Positions 16,403 through 24,525 of a stretch of 64,000 bases of DNA are shown here, piece after piece. Numbering within the stretch: the stretch's first letter is position 1; the number at the start of each line of letters is the position of its first letter. The notes below the pieces were generated by a model. That model was not told the DNA's origin and did no database searches. It was given only the letters and a program-made list of their open reading frames with translations. Made by a program: the position numbers and the translations under genes. Where the stretch lies: the NCBI GenBank assembly GCA_000182565.2, contig KQ257464.1. One strand, written 5' to 3'. Source of the DNA: Spizellomyces punctatus DAOM BR117. Taxonomy: Eukaryota.

Positions 16403-19400
16403 TTACAATCCAGTTACAGTATATGGTGTTTTGGGCTTTTTGGTAGCCGATGATTCAGAATCCACGTCCGCTAGACGCTTTCGTGTCACTGCCCAGGGTG
16501 CAAGACTAGTTCTGTCTACAACAGTTGTCGGCGAATCGGGATTGACATATGCTTCCTGGGCATTTCTTTTGCTGCTCGAGATTGGTATGGTGACCCATGG
16601 CTGATCGTCTGGCTCGCTACTTATAGGTTCGAAGCCAACCGCAGTGCAGAGATCATTGGTCCGAATGACTTCCAATGCCGTGGATCTCAATCCCGTTACA
16701 TTATCCGAAGACAACGGTGTTACCCGTGCTTCAGTTGGCGCTTGGCCACCCGTACAGACGTTTTCGTGAATGGTAGGATCAATGGAAAGTCTGCTTGCAG
16801 GTTCGCTAATGCAGTCCCCCAGAGGTTTGATGGCTGCTTCGGAGAGATTTTCTGAAGCAGATGCTGGCGCTGGTGTCCGTACAAGCATTCCCTCTGGTGC
16901 GGAAGCACCTACACTCTCTGTGGATGATGGCAAACCTTGAACCCAGCGACCTACAACTTTGGTAGGTGTTTCCACAGCCGAGCACAGTCGCTGGTGTCGT
17001 GCGAGCGGGGTGACATTCATTGCAGGCAGCATGCTTCTTCTTAAAGAGGGACCTGTAGTGCCATCGCTTGAAATTGACCACTGACGGCTACCTCCCCGCG
17101 GCGTACCACCAGAACAAGCTGTGGGTGAATGTATACTCGTTCCACCTGATAATCCCGACCAGCGTTTCTTTGGTGAAAGATCCTCCGCATTCAATACCTG
17201 TAAGGTGACATTAGCCAGGATTACGACGAATGGCAAAAGACCGTGAAACGGTGCTTATTGGAAACATACAGTTTTCAAGAAGTCGCTATGGCTTCGAGGC
17301 CAGTATTTTGAATTAGCTCTCGGGGTGCTGCTGCCAACAGTCAGCACCTCGTCCTCGTCATCCTCATTTTCCACTTTTTCCGCGTCGACACCCCCGGGAT
17401 CATTGTCCACCTTTTTCGAGGACTCGATGTCTCGGTACTTGGCAAGGTCGCTGCTCTGCTGTCGAAGAGGACTCATGCCAATTGCAGATGACCCGTCATC
17501 CATCAGCCTGCTTCTTTTGGCGATGCCTTCCATGATCGACGCGCCTCGTTTAAAGGATGATCGCTCGGAGAACGGGGTCGTAGGGTCGTTTATATTCGCA
17601 ATGGTAGGTAGAGAGCTTGTGGTGTTCAGGTCGTACATAAGGTGAAGATGTCTGCCATGAATGGGTGTCGTAGCGCTGGGCACGTTAAAGGCGGCTGATA
17701 ATGTGGATGGCTGGGGGGTCGTGAATACACGCACATGGTCCGTATACGCATTTGAAGATTCTACTTTCTCGTGTGTAACATCTTCTGTTGAATGAGCTGC
17801 AATTTGTGTACTGGTATCATCCGGATAGCGAGCAGGTGGGCCAGGTGTTCCTTCCGCGGTAGGATGCTTGTGTAGCACGTTGGTAGTTGGCAGTGTTGGT
17901 GTTTGGCTTTCTACGAGCACAGGCGCCTCGGAGAATGTCTTGTTGTTTTCAGTAGGACCATTGCTTTCAAGACCGCTTCCGTCGGTTGTGTGCGCAACGA
18001 CACCAGATTTGCCAGCGTAGGCTGGTGCAGCGAGGGCGCCTTTCGTGGAGGGTAGCTCGGCTGTGGTCATTGTGGGTATATGTAATTGAATGACTTTTAC
18101 GTTTTGAAATACTCGCGTTACCTTGTGATGCTGAAATAGTCATTTCTGCGTTCGGCTCTTGAGCTCCATCTGCAGGCTGACTTTCTAGGACAAGGAAAGG
18201 GTTGTCTCGGTCAGTACGACTGGGCTTGCAGAACCCACTTAGACTTTGTCGTCTGATGACATTAAGGTTAGCATCAGTGTCATCACGGACTTTGCGCATT
18301 GTTGCTGAGGGGCGTTGCTCCAATATTACGGTATCTAGGACATTTGTAACGTCACCCTCTTCTTTGGATGTGGCCAAGGGAAGCATTTGCTTCGTTTGAC
18401 GGGGCGATTTTGGAGGGCGCTGAAGACTTGCAATCAGATTGTCAAGTTCCTGGAAGTTTGCTTGACGCAGCCAACTCTTGTGTATCTTGGATTCAATGTG
18501 CTGGACAACAATAATGCCGCCGCGCAAGTTCAGCCATTACAATAGCTGAATCATTTCACAATTGGGACACTCACCTCCGCAAAAACATCATATTTTATGT
18601 TGCAGTTTTCGCAGTAGCCCGGGCGGTTGTAAAACGCCTTTCCAGCAATGCGATGGTCCCTACGCAGCGTTTCCTGGGGTCGCTTCCGATCCCTACGCTT
18701 CTGAATGTGCGGTTTGTTTCGGGGATGGACGACAAGCTCACGTTGTCCAAGTTGAGTCATCTTGGCATCCTTTAAAGGTTCTCTCTTTGGCAAGACTGCC
18801 GTGGATCCGGATATGAGCCCTGAGGCCGCTGAAGCGACAACGCCATGAAGGCGATGTAGCGCGACCTGCCTTTGTAAGTCATTCTCCTCAGTATCACTGG
18901 AATGCGCATCGCTTTCGTCGACTAGTCGTAAGGCCATTGGGCCGGCATTCGTCACCTCGTCTTGTCCATCCCTGTCGCTAACGCTAGTTGAACTGTCGTC
19001 ACTTGCAGAGCTTGGATATCTGACGAAGGCGCACCGACCCTGACGATCTTTGAAGAAGATTATCGGCCATGGGGGATTCTTCGGATCTTTCGCTTCTTTA
19101 TACTCTTTCATGAGAATAGGCTTATGCAGTTCCAAAGCGTCTTCTACAAGTACGAATCTACTTTTAAATGCTCGGAATGCAGCTTTCTCCTGCTCCGGAT
19201 CCCTGTTGGTCGAGAGACCGTACAGCTTTTCATCACGGAGATGATCCTGCAATCTACGTGGCACTGTAACTCCGTTGAGGGCCTTAAAAATGCGTACGAG
19301 TCCTGAACGACCGGATATACATTAGTAAGTTCAATCACATTTGCAACCCACATTGAAAGTCGCGGCTCTTACTGTCTAGGGACCACACGACAGCGCCAAA

Positions 19401-20573
19401 CTTGCGTGCGATGGATATATTATCTTCATTCTGCTTGCCTCTCGACGCAGAGAAATTGGGAGCCTATCAGACACACGAATGATCAATAAGTTTGCCAATT
19501 CGGGAACGGGAACCAAACATTGAATGTACTTGAAAGGCACTAACCCTTCTTCCAGATCTTCAGTTTGCAGAGTGAGATTGTAAGGAAGCAAAGTTAGCGT
19601 AAAAAAGCGACAGGAGACAAGGGGGTTGCATACACGTACGGGCTGCCAAGTTTGCCTGGAGACAATCCGCGGTTGGGTGTTGTTTCCTTGGCCCGCACAA
19701 CACTACCCGTGGTGGCAGAGCTTCTGGATGGCGTTTTTGAGCCATCTCTTTCCAGTGGAATGGGTTTATTAGTGACGAGATGAGTGATGCTTTTATTCAT
19801 AAAAAGCTCGACCGTCTGGTACATTCAAAGCTGGTGAGATCATTTGAGCTTCGGACACGAAAATGAGAGGTGATCCTTACGCCTCCCAGTTCTTTTATTT
19901 GGCGACTAAGATCAGCTGCCACTTTATTATCAAAGCAGTCAAAAAAGAATCTGTAGTTCTTGATTTTGCCTTTGAACTGCGCGAGCGCGACAGCCTTGTC
20001 GGCTACGGACTGCGTCGCTGGAGCAGAAGTCCCCTTTGACTTTCCTGGAGTTCTCTTCACAGAAGGGGTACGTGGTGTGGCAAAGACAGTAGTGGAACGC
20101 GCCCTGCTTGCGTCGGAAGTGGCAGATTCAGGCTTTTTGGTTTGGGATGGGGTGGCAGGTGTGTGTTTTTCGATCTTCCTTGCGGCTTGGCCGGCGACAG
20201 GAGTGTCGCTCGGCCCTTTCGCGCTTGACGGCCATAGCGAATTGGGCTTTGTGGGCCATGGGGGCGTATTCTTACGATAGTCGACAGAGCGTAACGGTGT
20301 ATTGCGCGCGCTCAAGGGCGGCTTCGCCGCGCTGGTGGGCACTACGGTAGAAGAGCTGCCTCGCGCAGAAATAGAGCTTGCAAAGCCATGAGGGCGGGTA
20401 AATTGAAATATTGGCTGCTTGACCTCAGGCGTGTGAGCCATTGACAGGTCGCTTCCCATATTCATTCCATTCCACAGACTTCCCAACGGTGCAGGCGTGT
20501 CCACCGTCGTGCGGACCTCCGCAAGCTTCTTACGCGTTGAGCCTGGTTGCACATTTTCACTCTGGTCGACCAT
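16403..20573 (-). CDS. DBF4: DDK regulatory subunit Dbf4/Dfp1/ASK
   Basis: Motif N/BRCT (YRFFFD...IKELGG-TVELFMNKSITHLVT), motif M (FVLVED...KPILMKEY...WP) and motif C Zn finger (PGYCENCNIKY...HIESKIH), followed by a long S/T/P-rich tail. Confidence 0.9.
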
Positions 20574-21154
20574 GACCGTTGGCCCCTAACCGCGTTTGTT
20601 TCCGGCTCGTTCACTGCTACCGAGAAACAAACGAGTAAGTTCTCCGAAATGATGCAACCGGTGATTTTCTGCGGTTTGGCAAACGCACCGGATACTCTCC
20701 CACCTGAAGCAAGGGGTCAAGCATCCAAAATAACAAGTACTGCTAACATGTGGACTGCGTTGGCGCCTTCGCTAACGTTTGAATACGCAAGAAAGATAGC
20801 AGGCTCGCACTCGGGGCGGTCGCCTTCAAAAGCAGTTTGATCACCCTGACGTAAGCCCAGCCGTGAGGGACCTCTCTTTTTCCAGGGGGACAAACACGTA
20901 GGAATGGCACACTCAGTCGGCGCTATTCTGGAACCACAAATATGCCTATAATACGGTCTGCGAAGGCGAACGGAAATGTAGATGGTGCTCAAAAAGGCGG
21001 TCTCGTTAAGGGCGACCTACTCATCCTGTCCGGACGTCATTTGGACCAAAATGGTTACATTTGCAATTACCGCGTTGTTCAATTTATCACCTTTTGAATG
21101 CCTTCTTGACGTTGTCAACAGTTGAGAGATGATGCTGTAATAAAACGATATCAA

Positions 21155-23587
21155 ATGGCTTCCGACGAAATCTCGGGAGCTCCCAAAGTCACCACCGACC
21201 ATGAGAACGGCACCTCTCCGTCAAGCGGCGAGAAGAGAAAAAGACAAACAAGTTGGGATAATGAACCTGGCACCGACTCACAGCCGTCCCCAAAAAATGC
21301 ACGCACAGGTATGCCAATCAATATCTTTCCCCGTCGATCCGTCATGTACTCTCTGACTTCTGGTGCGTGGTCGACAGATGGTGCGACCTTCTCTGAACCC
21401 ACTACACCAGCCGCCGCTAACCCCACAAGGACACAGCCCTCTACTCCTCAATCACAACCTTCGATTCACCCTACCTCTACCAGTTTAACGGCAGAGCAAC
21501 GAGAGAGGCTCGAGAAAGCAAAGGCCTTTGCCCGTGAGGCCACACTAAAGGTATTTGACTGTTGAATAAAACGTCTGCTTTGATGGTAGGTCGTGCGCAC
21601 GCTGACCAGTCCATGCTCAATCGTTGCTGGTCCAGATTTTACAGTCCAAACTGGCCCAAACCCCGCTGGTGATTCCCAACGCAGCCTCCCTAGCCGCCGG
21701 CGTAGAAGCCCGATCTATTGCGGTGATGAGCCGCATTTACGTAGGCTCGATCAACTTTGAGCTAACAGAGCAACACATCAAAGCGGTGTTCAATCAATTC
21801 GGCTACGTAAAATCCGTGAGCATGACCATTGATCCAGCTACTGGCAAGCACAAGGGATTCTGTTTTGTGGAATACGAGGTACCAGAAGCGGCAGAATTAG
21901 CTTTGGATCTTATGAACGGAGCCGAGCTCGGAGGACGGTAAGATTTCCAACAAGACGATCATGGTGGTTCGGGATCAAGGAACTGAATCGGTATCGATTG
22001 GTGTAGCCAACTAAAAGTGGGACGACCGAATAATTACAACCCAACTGTTGCCAAAACACTTCCCACACCAATCCCACAACGCCTCTACATCGCCAATGTC
22101 AACGAGTTCGTGTCCGAACAGAATATCGAAAGCATTTTCGAAGCATTCGGAAAAATCAAAGGATGTTCGCTGCTTGTACGTACTACAAACCAAACTCTAC
22201 TTACTCTTTCTGGATCCCAAATCTCATCTTGTTCACTTGCAGCCAGATCTAGTACAACGCAAACACAAGGGCAATGGGTAAGTGAAAGGGTGATTGTGTT
22301 TGGGCAGAAGCGCGGGCTGTGCGGTATATGGGGTACCGTTGGGACGAGGCGTAGCGGGTTTTGCTATACTCGCGAGGCTCTTTATGTTGGGAGTTGCCGG
22401 TATTGACCTTCCCTGTCGTCCTACGCTTTATTTTTCTTTCTTTCTTTCTTCCTTCTCCTGAACATACCGCCCCTACTTGCATTATATCCGTATTGTCATC
22501 CACATATCGCCAGCCGATGGCCCAAGCTTTGTGTGTGACACACTCTGCCATGAAGTCAGCCGTAGGAGACGGGGTCCAACCACCCTTTCCGGCCTGATAC
22601 ATGCTGGACCTTCTATCACCGTGCGACGCCAGTGCAAGCAATGGCTGACCGCGATTGTGTGTTCTTGTAGGTATATTGAGTTTGAGGAGGAAACTGCAGC
22701 GATAGCGGCTCTCGCCAGCATGAACAACTTTGAACTCGGAGGGCAACCCTTGCGTATGATGAAGGCCATGATTGGCGGGCCACTTCCCCCTGGTATGAAA
22801 AGTTTGGAGACTATGCCACCGGTTCCTGTGGTCGCTACCGTTCCTGCCAGTGTCCTAAATGTGGCTCACAACATCAATAACACGATTGGTATGTGGTTTC
22901 CTTCTGCTACTGTGATCGCGAACGACAGGTTTAACGGTTTGTCGATGAATCAGCACAGAAAACCGGCGCTGCTGCAGCAGCTAGGCTCATAAATCCTGCG
23001 CTGCAAAGTGCTCTTGCCAAAGTTCAGGCAAGAGTAAACGAAGAGAACGCCGCTCTAGAGGAAAACATGTCCATTAGTGCAAGTCAGCGATATTCGATAA
23101 TGCAGAAATTGATGAGGAGTGATGGAAGCCAAGAGGTGAGTGTTGTGTAAATAGAGTAGAGATTCGAGTATTATTTGATGCTCATTTCATATGCGTAGGC
23201 ATCGTCACCTGTGATTGCGCTTCGTAATATGGTTGTGGTGAAGGATCTGGATGATTCGCTGAACGACGAGATATCAGAGGAATGTACAAAATATGGGCGG
23301 GTTCTAAAGGTCTTGATTTGGGTAGATCCTGTCAAACAGGCAAGCGATGCCTTGAAGCCAGACGATAATGTGGATATTTATGTTCAGTTTGAGGCGCCAG
23401 AAGGTATGTTACCTTTCCAAAATTCGTCGACCACAGGTTCGAGCTGATATGGTTGTTATCTCCAGCGGCGAGACAAGCAAGGGCAGCGTTAGATAAACGC
23501 TTTTTTGCTGGACGACGGGTAGCGGCATCCTTTTTCACGATGGAGGAATTTGCTAAATTGGATTCGCAGACAAATGCAACCATCTGA
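21155..23587 (+). CDS. PUF60: Poly(U)-binding splicing factor PUF60/half-pint (RRM1, RRM2, UHM)
   Basis: MSRIYVGSINFEL...DPATGKHKGFCFVEYEVPEAAELAL..MNG..LGGRQLKVGRPNN, RLYIANV, MNNFELGGQPLR, EENMSISASQRYSIMQKLMR and UHM VIALRNMV...EISEECTKYG...RFFAGR. Confidence 0.93.
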
Positions 23588-23803
23588 ATTTCTATCCGTT
23601 TGTTCATTTCATCACCAACATGAAACTGATGCTATTTGCATGTTCGAAACAGTTGAGAAAGGATGCAACTAAATTTACATAACGAAAACTAAACATGTAC
23701 AAATTGGGACTCAGCTATGCTGGTCTAAATCTAAATGAAACTAATCCAAAATTAAAAATATGTGGAGCGGCTGGCCACACCTGGCTCAGCCAAAAGTGAG
23801 TGC

Positions 23804-24525
23804 CTACCACCAGCGCTGCGAGGCTACCCTCCAGTTCCACCATTCGGCGCCTGCATAACCTAACCAGCCCAACACAAGGATCCACCCAGCGCTTGCAGCT
23901 GCCTTTACAGTGCCCAAATTCTTGGTCTCCTGTCCGACACCAGGGGTGAAGAATCCATACGAGAAGACAATCCCACATCCGGCATCTCCTTGAGCTTTTT
24001 CAAACTCTTGACAAGATTTCTTCAAACCAGCTGTGACGAGCGATGCTGCAACCAATGCGACAAGAGTGTACATTGATGCGACCACGGCGAATGCAAGAAT
24101 CACCCGCTTTGCACGAGCCTGGTCTTTGGCCAAGAAGTAAAGCAAAGTACCACCGAGGATAATGGACAGGAGGATACCAAGAATGCCAACACTAATAACA
24201 TAAAATGAGGACCCACGTTGAAAGCTCCACAAATGTTGGCTGGTCACTTACCCAACAGCAATTCCGCAAGCTGATGAGTCCGCATCGAACAGGCGCACTC
24301 CACCCTCCTCATGATAATTACCAACAAAGAGTAGACTACAGATGTGCAGAAAAAACAAACTGTTAGTACAGGGGCCCAAGGAAAGACAATAACCCTCTGA
24401 AATTACCAAACACGAGACGGCCCGAATTGGGCTTGGTCCGATATTCCGCCAGTAAAGATGGCTGCAACGACCAACAGCACCACGTAGAGTGCTCCCCACG
24501 CTAGGGTCTTTGCATTAATGTTCAT
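23804..24525 (-). CDS. Four-TM membrane protein, MARVEL/TMEM179-like
   Basis: Three exons giving four hydrophobic helices, with Cys pairs in the loops (CSLLF...SSAC; GLKKSCQEF...GCG) and a final AGWILVLGWLGY. The family assignment is tentative. Confidence 0.55.

What the first reader, a model, noticed from the sequence alone, without database searches (positions are those of the whole stretch)
22277..22670. PUF60 intron with an internal branch point, long poly-pyrimidine tract and cryptic acceptor leading to a premature stop: candidate autoregulatory poison exon
Seen: this intron is about 394 nt, against roughly 50-80 nt for most introns in the window, and it splits the RRM2 RNP1 motif (KHKGNG|YIEF). 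It contains a branch-like ATTGAC (~22402) and a long U/C tract (~22426-22460, TTTATTTTTCTTTCTTTCTTTCTTCCTTCTCC). About 120 nt are AG-free up to the first CAG at 22511-22513. Splicing to that CAG gives GG|C CGA TGG CCC AAG CTT TGT GTG TGA, a stop at 22536-22538 upstream of several later introns. Possible downstream donors at 22562 (GTAGGA) or 22621 (GTGCGA, leaving a typical 50-nt intron) would make it a cassette exon. Known: PUF60 binds U-rich tracts to promote weak 3' splice sites, and related splicing factors such as RBM39 and SR proteins autoregulate through poison exons and NMD. Inferred: an AS-NMD feedback loop on PUF60 in an early-diverging fungus.
Basis: partly seen in the sequence, partly recalled or inferred. 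Interest (0 to 1): 0.72.

Follow-up and report, generated by a model that had tools for sequence, protein, structure and literature searches.

The report
Long regulatory-looking intron in chytrid PUF60
The gene for a splicing factor that binds U-rich RNA in the chytrid Spizellomyces punctatus has one oversized intron with an exceptional U/C-rich tract and a hidden splice site, which may let the protein limit its own production, although no RNA data yet show this.

Summary
The gene is SPPG_07380 of Spizellomyces punctatus, a clear PUF60 orthologue with 9 exons and 519 aa. The other seven introns are 62-85 nt. It splits RNP1 of RRM2.

The branch-like TTGAC, the 120-nt AG-free zone, CAG 22511-13 and the stop at 22536-38 are all present. 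The 29-nt pure pyrimidine run is the longest in the 64-kb window and appeared in 0 of 5000 shuffles.

I found no snoRNA, fold signal, repeat or ORF that would explain the length.

The only RNA run is 3'-biased and does not cover the intron, so poison splicing in this species remains untested.

New comparative evidence:
- The intron position is shared with Glomeromycota, Endogonales and other chytrids.
- In Rhizophagus-like contigs that lack four neighbouring introns, exon 5 is joined to an alternative acceptor inside this same intron, which gives a premature stop.
- Gene models of relatives break at this site in 21 of 50 cases.

A published fungal precedent exists in srp2/SRSF5, a long retained intron targeted by NMD.

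Verdict: plausible unproductive-splicing feedback, about 45%. A neutral long intron is about 35%. If real, it is a new member of a known kind.

The parts
21155..23587 (+). Coding region of SPPG_07380, the PUF60 orthologue (9 exons, 519 aa; RRM1, RRM2, C-terminal UHM)
22243..22277 (+). Exon 5 (35 nt), which ends with the first two bases of the Gly codon in RNP1 of RRM2 (KHKGNG)
   Evidence: P0002 is identical across the junction
22278..22670 (+). Intron 5, 393 nt, U2-type GT-AG, phase 2. If retained, a TAA at 22279-22281 stops translation at once
22278..22283 (+). 5' splice site GTAAGT (consensus)
22402..22407 (+). Internal branch-like ATTGAC. TTGAC resembles the CTGAC seen near the 3' ends of introns 1, 2 and 5. 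The A at 22406 lies 107 nt from the first AG downstream
22426..22460 (+). U/C tract. The pure pyrimidine run 22431-22459 (29 nt) includes (TTTC)5.5 at 22433-22454
22394..22511 (+). AG-free zone between the AGs at 22392 and 22512. Positions 22408-22510 are 77% pyrimidine
22511..22513 (+). Candidate alternative 3' splice site CAG. Its use would lengthen exon 6 by 157 nt
   Evidence: use is not shown
22536..22538 (+). In-frame TGA after splicing to 22514. It lies 350 nt upstream of the exon 6/7 junction and ahead of three later introns
22562..22567 (+). Candidate donor GTAGGA. It would make a 48-nt cassette followed by a 109-nt intron
   Evidence: use is not shown
22621..22626 (+). Candidate donor GTGCGA. 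It would make a 107-nt cassette followed by a 50-nt intron
   Evidence: use is not shown
22645..22649 (+). Likely authentic branch site CTGAC, with the A at 22648, 22 nt from the 3' splice site
22668..22670 (+). Authentic 3' splice site TAG. The 30 nt before the terminal AG (22639-22668) are only 57% pyrimidine
22671..22888 (+). Exon 6, which begins G|YIEFEEE (second half of RRM2)

Best explanation
Intron 5 of the S. punctatus PUF60 gene is an ancient intron that must be removed exactly to rebuild RNP1 of RRM2. I read it as a switch for unproductive splicing.

Two 3' splice-site modules compete for the one consensus donor at 22278:
- The authentic module has a perfect branch site (CTGAC at 22645), normal spacing (22 nt) and almost no pyrimidine tract, like the other introns of this gene.
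- The internal module has a weaker branch site (TTGAC at 22403), the strongest pyrimidine tract in the window (22426-22460), and no AG until CAG 22511-13.

Inferred mechanism: PUF60, alone or with U2AF65, binds the internal U/C tract and recruits U2 to the upstream branch site. The first AG downstream is then used. The resulting mRNA carries a TGA at 22536-38 ahead of three exon junctions and is removed by NMD. More PUF60 would therefore give less productive mRNA, which is negative feedback. A cassette form using donors 22562 or 22621 is possible but less likely.

Shown here: the anatomy, its statistical oddity, the age of the intron position, and use of an internal alternative acceptor with a premature stop in the orthologous intron of Rhizophagus-like fungi.

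Inferred only: any use of 22513 in S. punctatus, PUF60 binding, and NMD.
For: 1. Anatomy at the stated coordinates.

2. The 29-nt pyrimidine run is the longest in 64 kb and appeared in 0 of 5000 shuffles. The AG-free gap appeared in 117 of 5000 shuffles. Sibling introns have pyrimidine runs of 4-9 nt and 43-67% pyrimidine before their acceptors. A real tract is therefore unusual here, and it sits in the sense strand of the pre-mRNA of a poly(U)-binding factor.

3. PUF60 identity:
- RRM1 scores E 4.9e-43 to PUF60 structures, against 1.4e-27 for the next other protein.
- The UHM matches PUF60 best, at 1.1e-08.
- Named orthologues are listed.

4. The intron position and phase are shared:
- L001 breaks at residue 278/279.
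- Four models or ORFs of relatives end exactly at the Gly, and 17 read through or carry insertions there. That is 21 of the 50 proteins that hold the motif, against 2 of 50 at the intron-3 site.

5. RNA-like evidence in a relative:
- L001 lacks all four GT-AG introns (71, 75 and 66 nt, plus one cut by the contig end) that are present in L003. The two are 94-98% identical in exon DNA and identical in protein.
- L001 nevertheless keeps 214 nt at the intron-5 site.
- The first 31 nt of that insert are joined to exon 5 in L001, P0134 and P0020. In P0126, P0128, P0129 and P0132 they are joined to a different upstream end. P0122 reads on into other sequence.
- This is the signature of an alternative acceptor inside the intron. 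It yields a stop after 21 codons.

6. Precedents seen in passages:
- Fungal srp2/SRSF5 retains a conserved-position intron that is an NMD target and is among the longest 1-3% of introns (PMC4379411).
- A preprint abstract reports that mouse Puf60 affects its own splicing (10.64898/2026.05.17.725788).
Against: - There is no RNA evidence in S. punctatus. The one RNA run laid gives depth only from 23188 onward and none over 22231-22665.
- The public annotation holds a single 519-aa product. No second S. punctatus protein appeared.
- (TTTC)n is an ordinary microsatellite type and could be neutral.
- A distance of 107 nt from branch site to AG is long for an organism whose introns are about 60-85 nt.
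- The candidate cassette donors are weak.
- The Rhizophagus-like intron shares no recognisable sequence with this one. Its U-rich tract lies at the authentic acceptor, not internally.
- A more distant PUF60 gene (L004/L005) has no intron at this site.
- The reading of L001 as RNA-derived is an inference; a processed gene copy is not excluded.
- A premature stop follows 12 of the 16 internal AGs, so the stop adds little.
Confidence: 0.45

Rival explanations
1. A neutral long intron. An old, constitutively spliced intron happened to grow, partly through a (TTTC)n microsatellite, and has no regulatory role. The cryptic acceptor is never used at a meaningful level.
For: - TRF calls the tract a period-4 repeat.
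- There is no fold signal: z +0.44 for the whole intron.
- The best local window scores z -3.3 among 82 windows, on the minus strand in low-complexity sequence.
- Only one annotated product exists.
- The authentic branch site and donor are consensus.
- Intron sequence is not conserved with L001.
- Stops follow most internal AGs anyway.
Against: - It is a coincidence that the longest pyrimidine run of the window lies, in sense, in the only oversized intron of the one poly(U)-binding splicing-factor gene.
- The orthologous intron is also the long one in the relative: a 183-214 nt insert against 66-75 nt for sibling introns.
- That intron is alternatively and unproductively spliced in Rhizophagus-like contigs.
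- Gene models of nine named genera fail at this site.
Confidence: 0.35
2. Regulated retention or detention of the whole intron, without any cryptic acceptor. The intron is too long for efficient intron-definition splicing and is removed slowly. Unspliced RNA stops at TAA 22279-81 and is degraded or held in the nucleus. The pyrimidine tract acts as a binding platform that slows splicing.
For: - Retention gives an immediate stop.
- The fungal srp2 precedent is retention of a notably long intron (PMC4379411).
- Read-through models in relatives include P0122-4, P0130, P0035 and P0025.
- L001 keeps 183 nt of the intron unspliced.
Against: - No read over the intron in S. punctatus.
- It does not explain the ordered arrangement of branch site, tract, AG-free zone and AG.
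- Read-through in predicted proteins may be an artefact of gene prediction.
Confidence: 0.12
3. The extra length houses another element: an intronic snoRNA or other small RNA, a mobile-element remnant or introner, or a small gene on either strand.
For: Only the length itself. Fungal small RNAs of early-diverging lineages are thinly represented in Rfam.
Against: - No Rfam match with E up to 10 inside the intron, on either strand.
- No C box and no H box on the sense strand.
- No significant local fold.
- No second copy in the window beyond 13-30 nt chance matches.
- Intron ORFs on both strands have no Pfam family above cut-off.
Confidence: 0.04
4. An internal promoter. CT-rich tracts mark transcription starts in some fungi (recalled), so a 5'-truncated transcript encoding only the C-terminal half with the UHM could start in the intron.
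For: - Only the CT-rich tract.
- The open frame 22462-22992 runs into exon 6.
Against: - That frame has no ATG before exon 6.
- No read starts were listed anywhere (table 6), and depth over 22231-22665 is zero.
- The idea rests on recall alone.
Confidence: 0.04

Closest known systems
RBM39 (CAPER-alpha) autoregulation through poison exon 2b (PMC10477243; abstract and passages read)
   Same: RBM39 has the same domain plan as PUF60: two RRMs plus a UHM. The protein itself selects an unusual 3' splice site in its own pre-mRNA. The product carries a premature stop and is an NMD target, giving negative feedback.
   Different: - The RBM39 case was shown by knock-down, rescue and minigenes in human cells; nothing is shown here.
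- RBM39 recognises N(G/U)NUUUG directly at the acceptor. Here a long U/C tract lies 52 nt upstream of the candidate AG.
- The exon there is a true cassette. Here an alternative 3' splice site is the more likely form.
Fungal srp2 / animal SRSF5 unproductive splicing at a conserved intron (Lareau and Brenner 2015, PMC4379411; abstract and passages read)
   Same: - A splicing-factor gene.
- An intron position conserved over very long distances.
- The intron is notably long for a fungus.
- The intron sequence is not conserved.
- Unproductive isoforms carry in-frame stops.
   Different: - In that work, ESTs and an NMD mutant of Neurospora showed the event. Here the only RNA-like evidence is in Glomeromycota-type contigs, not in the chytrid.
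- The family differs: an SR protein there, a UHM-type U2AF-related factor here.
Distant branch points with an AG-exclusion zone in regulated 3' splice sites of animals (recalled; no paper read)
   Same: A branch site followed by a long pyrimidine tract and a long AG-free stretch before the acceptor.
   Different: The concept was derived from vertebrate introns. It is untested in fungi with 60-85 nt introns, and branch-point use has not been mapped here.
Mouse Puf60 'own splicing autoregulation' (bioRxiv 10.64898/2026.05.17.725788; abstract only)
   Same: The same protein family is reported to affect splicing of its own transcript.
   Different: I could not find which event is meant. The text contains no mention of NMD or a poison exon. 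Homology of the event is unknown.

Membership tests
PUF60 / half pint family of UHM splicing factors | Two N-terminal RRMs with PUF60-type sequence | tested here: met
   - RRM_1 scores E 5.2e-20 in exon 3.
- RRM2 is split: profile positions 1-30 in exon 4 (E 8.9e-05) and 43-70 in exon 6 (E 0.0019, 18.4 bits, below the 20.7 cut-off).
- The best five PDB matches are all PUF60, at about 1e-42.
PUF60 / half pint family of UHM splicing factors | C-terminal U2AF-homology motif (third, atypical RRM) | tested here: met
   Exon 8 matches PUF60 UHM structures best (1.1e-08), then SPF45 (3.6e-06). Pfam gave no hit for exons 8 and 9 alone.
PUF60 / half pint family of UHM splicing factors | Orthology to named PUF60 proteins | tested here: met
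   Chytrid proteins named 'Poly(U)-binding-splicing factor puf60' and animal PUF60/half pint appear among the hits, at 55-84% identity over RRM1.
Autoregulatory unproductive splicing (AS-NMD, poison exon or alternative 3' splice site) | The alternative junction is present in RNA of the organism | tested here: inconclusive
   The RNA run X7 gave 297 reads, nearly all 3' of 23188, and zero depth over 22231-22665.
Autoregulatory unproductive splicing (AS-NMD, poison exon or alternative 3' splice site) | The alternative form carries a stop more than about 50 nt upstream of a later exon junction | tested here: met
   In silico only. TGA 22536-38 lies 350 nt before the exon 6/7 junction, and three introns follow.
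Autoregulatory unproductive splicing (AS-NMD, poison exon or alternative 3' splice site) | The isoform is stabilised when NMD is blocked | not testable with these tools
   Needs wet-lab work or NMD-inhibited RNA-seq.
Autoregulatory unproductive splicing (AS-NMD, poison exon or alternative 3' splice site) | The splice choice depends on the level of the encoded protein, which binds the pre-mRNA | not testable with these tools
   Only the presence of a long U/C tract, the kind of sequence the family binds, is shown.
Autoregulatory unproductive splicing (AS-NMD, poison exon or alternative 3' splice site) | The event or its intron is conserved in orthologues | tested here: met
   - Position and phase are shared.
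- An internal acceptor with a premature stop is seen in Rhizophagus-like contigs.
- Conservation of sequence and of the tract is not met.
- Close chytrid genomes could not be fetched.
Intron-hosted snoRNA | C/D or H/ACA boxes with a terminal stem, or a match to a curated family | tested here: not met
   No Rfam match with E up to 10. No C box or H box on the sense strand.
U12-type (minor) intron | Extended 5' splice-site consensus of the minor class and a branch site close to the acceptor (consensus recalled) | tested here: not met
   The donor is GTAAGT and the branch site is CTGAC, both of the major type.
Introner or repeat-derived intron | Further copies of the intron sequence in the genome | tested here: inconclusive
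   No copy elsewhere in the 64-kb window. No whole genome is held.

The most novel reading that the evidence does not exclude
Unproductive splicing at the intron that splits RNP1 of RRM2 is an ancestral feature of fungal PUF60 genes, dating from before the split of chytrids and Glomeromycota.

In this reading the protein senses its own concentration through a pyrimidine tract in that intron. The trigger has been rebuilt in each lineage:
- an internal tract and alternative acceptor in Spizellomyces;
- a duplicated donor region and a 31-nt frame-shifting segment in Rhizophagus.

This would be a second deep-time case like SRSF5/srp2, and the first for a U2AF-related 3' splice-site factor.
Probability: 0.25. 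Interest if true: 0.62.

Novelty: new member of a known kind. Interest (0 to 1): 0.5.

Why it matters
Feedback by unproductive splicing is known for many splicing factors, but few cases can be traced across fungal phyla. It is barely explored for the factors that read the 3' splice site itself.

If confirmed, this would show three things:
- Chytrids, whose ordinary introns here lack pyrimidine tracts, still use a tract-reading factor for regulation.
- An intron can be kept long against the fungal trend to short introns because it carries a control device.
- A simple, genetically approachable model exists for how PUF60 chooses a 3' splice site.

If it is not confirmed, the intron is just an annotated long intron containing a microsatellite.

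Tried and rejected
- **RNA search:** no RNA holder was listed for 21100-23700. X1-X3 proved to be low-depth DNA contigs that include the introns, with 0 differences. The one raw-read RNA run, X7 (60-nt reads, 293 first mates against 4 second mates), covers only the 3' end. It says the gene is expressed. Five loose ends at 23464 fit splicing of intron 8. It says nothing on intron 5.
- **Whole genome:** none is held.
- **Rfam:** nothing inside the intron, and nothing relevant in L001-L003.
- **Folds:**
  - Whole intron z +0.44.
  - L001 intron z +1.13.
  - Sliding windows gave nothing convincing.
- **Bridging helix:** a 13-nt inverted repeat (22284-96 with 22577-89) looked like one that would loop out the internal module. 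It has zero pairing probability in the ensemble. Forcing it costs about 12 kcal/mol. Duplexes as good occur in 68 of 300 shuffles. Rejected.
- **Direct repeat:** the start of exon 6 is repeated at 22323. I judged this to be at chance level.
- **Repeat or mobile element:** no copies in the window.
- **Coding potential:** nothing in the intron on either strand. The bacterial-type promoter and terminator scan is irrelevant here.
- **Census of intron lengths in the window:** ORF-joining scans were too noisy to count long introns. I rely only on the eight introns of this gene and one verified 74-nt intron in the neighbouring gene.
- **Related DNA:** the genome-contig scan found none. The single metagenome scan gave five loci.
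- **Short protein fragments over RRM2:** none at E 1e-12.
- **Earlier notes of this scan:** none.
- **Papers:**
  - Searches for 'PUF60' with 'poison exon' and with 'autoregulat' listed no paper describing a PUF60 poison exon.
  - PMC6547761 does not mention PUF60.
  - Passages seen in PMC6142364 and PMC10639083 gave no intron-length figure for S. punctatus. Their supplements were not opened and may hold such figures or per-gene retention calls.
- **U12 reading of the L001 insert:** considered because its first bases at the conserved site are AT, then dropped. The boundary is better explained as a splice junction to an internal acceptor.
Full report
**What is there**

The + strand between 21155 and 23587 carries a nine-exon gene. 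Its 519-aa product is identical to P0002, the protein SPPG_07380 of Spizellomyces punctatus DAOM BR117. The window is therefore chytrid DNA, and my model agrees with the public one.

The protein is a PUF60 orthologue:
- Exon 3 gives RRM_1 at 5.2e-20.
- Its five best solved-structure matches are all PUF60, at about 1e-42. The next different protein scores 1.4e-27 and RBM39 scores 3e-15.
- Exon 8 matches the PUF60 UHM best, at 1.1e-08.
- Relatives named puf60 or half pint fill the homologue list.

**The observation**

The intron lengths are 69, 85, 69, 67, 393, 65, 63 and 62 nt. It sits in phase 2 in the Gly codon of KHKGNG|YIEF. Pfam places RRM profile positions 1-30 in exon 4 and 43-70 in exon 6, so the intron does split RRM2.

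- ATTGAC at 22402.
- No AG from 22392 to 22512.
- CAG at 22511-13.
- A TGA at 22536-38 after splicing to 22514.
- GTAGGA at 22562 and GTGCGA at 22621.

The authentic 3' end has its own consensus branch site, CTGAC at 22645, 22 nt from the acceptor.

**Is it more than chance?**

- The 29-nt pure pyrimidine run (22431-22459) is the longest pyrimidine or purine run in all 64 kb. Only two others reach 20 nt.
- A run that long never arose in 5000 dinucleotide-preserving shuffles of the intron.
- TRF sees it as (TTTC)5.5.
- The 120-nt AG-free gap arose in 117 of 5000 shuffles, and it follows largely from the pyrimidine richness (77% over 22408-22510).
- The stop codon adds little: 12 of the 16 internal AGs would lead to a stop.
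- The seven sibling introns have pyrimidine runs of only 4-9 nt and 43-67% pyrimidine before their acceptors. Ordinary introns of this gene manage without a tract, and the one real tract is internal.

**What it is not**

- No Rfam family matches inside the intron at E up to 10 on either strand.
- There is no C box or H box on the sense strand and no convincing local fold.
- No other copy exists in the window.
- No ORF in the intron has a family.
- An inverted repeat that could have bridged the intron ends has no thermodynamic or statistical support.

**RNA in this species**

No indexed RNA run holds the stretch. The one raw-read RNA run of the same species label is strongly 3'-biased. It gives depth 4.5-18 from 23188 onward, at most 0.45 in any earlier bin, and zero over 22231-22665. 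The gene is expressed, and loose ends at 23464 fit removal of intron 8. The decisive junctions are untested.

**Relatives**

One metagenome scan gave five loci.

L004 and L005 (56% GC, 59% identity in RRM1) have RNP1 of RRM2 in one piece, so there is no intron at this site in that lineage.

L001 and L003 encode proteins nearly identical to Rhizophagus and Glomus PUF60:
- L003 has four GT-AG introns. Three are 71, 75 and 66 nt, and a fourth is cut by the contig end. Two of them lie at the positions of S. punctatus introns 3 and 4.
- L001 is 94-98% identical in exon DNA and identical in protein, yet it lacks all four exactly. L001 is therefore cDNA-like.
- Other short JGI members of the same protein cluster (P0125, P0127, P0133, P0134) also run through spliced upstream junctions. 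The collection evidently holds transcript assemblies.
- A processed gene copy is the alternative reading of L001.

The only non-coding insert in L001 lies at residue 278/279 of the query, in the same codon and phase as the long S. punctatus intron. It measures 214 nt from the conserved site, and 183 nt from an internal GTAATG. That is about three times the length of the sibling introns in L003.

**An internal acceptor in Rhizophagus**

The first 31 nt of the L001 insert follow the end of exon 5 directly in L001, P0134 and the R. irregularis model P0020. In P0126, P0128, P0129 and P0132 the same 31 nt, read in another frame, follow a different upstream piece. In P0122-4 and P0130 (R. irregularis) the sequence after exon 5 reads on into something else.

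One downstream segment joined to two upstream ends, plus a read-through version, is the signature of an alternative acceptor inside the intron. I infer this from proteins and two raw contigs, not from the genomic sequence. Used from the conserved donor, it gives a stop after 21 codons if the rest is retained. If the 31 nt were included as a cassette, it would give a frameshift, by my reading.

More broadly, among the 50 fetched proteins that hold the RRM2 motif:
- 29 are contiguous across the site.
- 4 end exactly at the Gly, as a phase-2 GTAA or GTGA donor would cause.
- 17 read through or carry insertions there.

These anomalies cover nine named genera of Glomeromycota, Endogonales and Spizellomycetales. 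Only 2 of the 50 are odd at the intron-3 site. Eleven of the 21 anomalies come from Rhizophagus, and predicted proteins are not transcripts, so this shows a difficult, widely shared intron rather than regulation.

**How it most likely works**

I take the intron to be a device for unproductive splicing, as set out under Best explanation. Two 3' modules compete for one donor. The internal one is favoured when a tract-binding factor, most simply PUF60 itself, is abundant. Use of CAG 22511-13 puts a stop 350 nt before the next junction.

Three published precedents fit:
- RBM39, with the same domain plan, selects the acceptor of its own poison exon (PMC10477243).
- Fungal srp2 retains a conserved-position, unusually long intron and is an NMD target (PMC4379411).
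- A preprint abstract says mouse Puf60 affects its own splicing.

I put this reading at about 0.45, a neutral long intron with a microsatellite at 0.35, retention-only regulation at 0.12, and other elements at under 0.1 together.

**Comparison and novelty**

It would work like the RBM39 and srp2 loops. Membership in the class of autoregulatory unproductive splicing is not established, because the three defining experimental features are untested (see Membership tests).

My two searches listed no paper describing a PUF60 poison exon. If the event is real, it is a new member of a known kind. The added interest is that the same intron seems to be used in two fungal phyla.

**Limits**

- No chytrid relative's DNA could be fetched.
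- Supplements of the papers were not opened.
- The Rhizophagus genomic intron was not seen.

Noticed in passing
window 23599 and 23653 (minus-strand transcript ends); neighbouring ORF 23804-24247 (-): RNA reads carry poly-T loose ends before 23599 (5 reads) and 23653 (16 reads), and minus-direction depth reaches 81 at 23623-23700. The convergent downstream gene seems to be polyadenylated 12-66 nt past the PUF60 stop codon (23585-87). The two 3' UTRs would then overlap.
   Followed up: partly
L001 588-618 and 619-801; proteins P0020, P0122, P0126, P0128, P0134: In Rhizophagus the orthologous intron seems to hold a 31-nt segment with its own acceptor and two donors (GTTATT at L001 603, GTAATG at 619). 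The peptides suggest that the region around the donor is duplicated inside the intron. In Rhizophagus, Gigaspora, Diversispora, Dentiscutata, Cetraspora and Jimgerdemannia models the residue after the Gly is H or Q (codon CA.). The second intron base would then be C, implying a GC-AG intron. This is inferred; the genomic DNA was not seen.
   Followed up: partly
L003 1189-1254/1263; L001 about 418-426; P0122 versus P0134: A 9-nt alternative 3' splice site (two AGs 9 nt apart) adds or removes three residues (DNI or DNV) in the RRM1-RRM2 linker of Rhizophagus-type PUF60. Both forms occur among the fetched proteins and contigs.
   Followed up: partly
protein P0127 (JGI contig of 1024 nt): After GGR this Rhizophagus-like product continues with a peptide resembling L003's third intron in translation. 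The exon encoding QLKVGRPNNY...TAATAA may be skipped in that transcript.
   Followed up: no
protein P0001 (Spizellomyces sp. 'palustris') versus window intron 6 (22889-22953): The 99%-identical orthologue model is 21 aa longer exactly at the position of intron 6, where an in-frame stretch is read through. This is either a prediction error or an in-frame retained intron in that species.
   Followed up: no
window 17970-20585 (-): The upstream neighbour is a Dbf4/Dfp1-type gene (Dfp1_Him1_M at 9.3e-20, zf-DBF at 9.4e-05). A 74-nt GT-AG intron (18501-18574) splits the zinc finger. This is one more verified example of the short intron size typical here.
   Followed up: partly
window 22323-22334 versus 22670-22681: A 12-nt stretch inside the intron repeats the acceptor and exon-6 start with 10 of 12 bases identical. 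I judged this to be at chance level.
   Followed up: partly
window, position not looked up: The window contains 149 N bases, which indicates an assembly gap somewhere.
   Followed up: no
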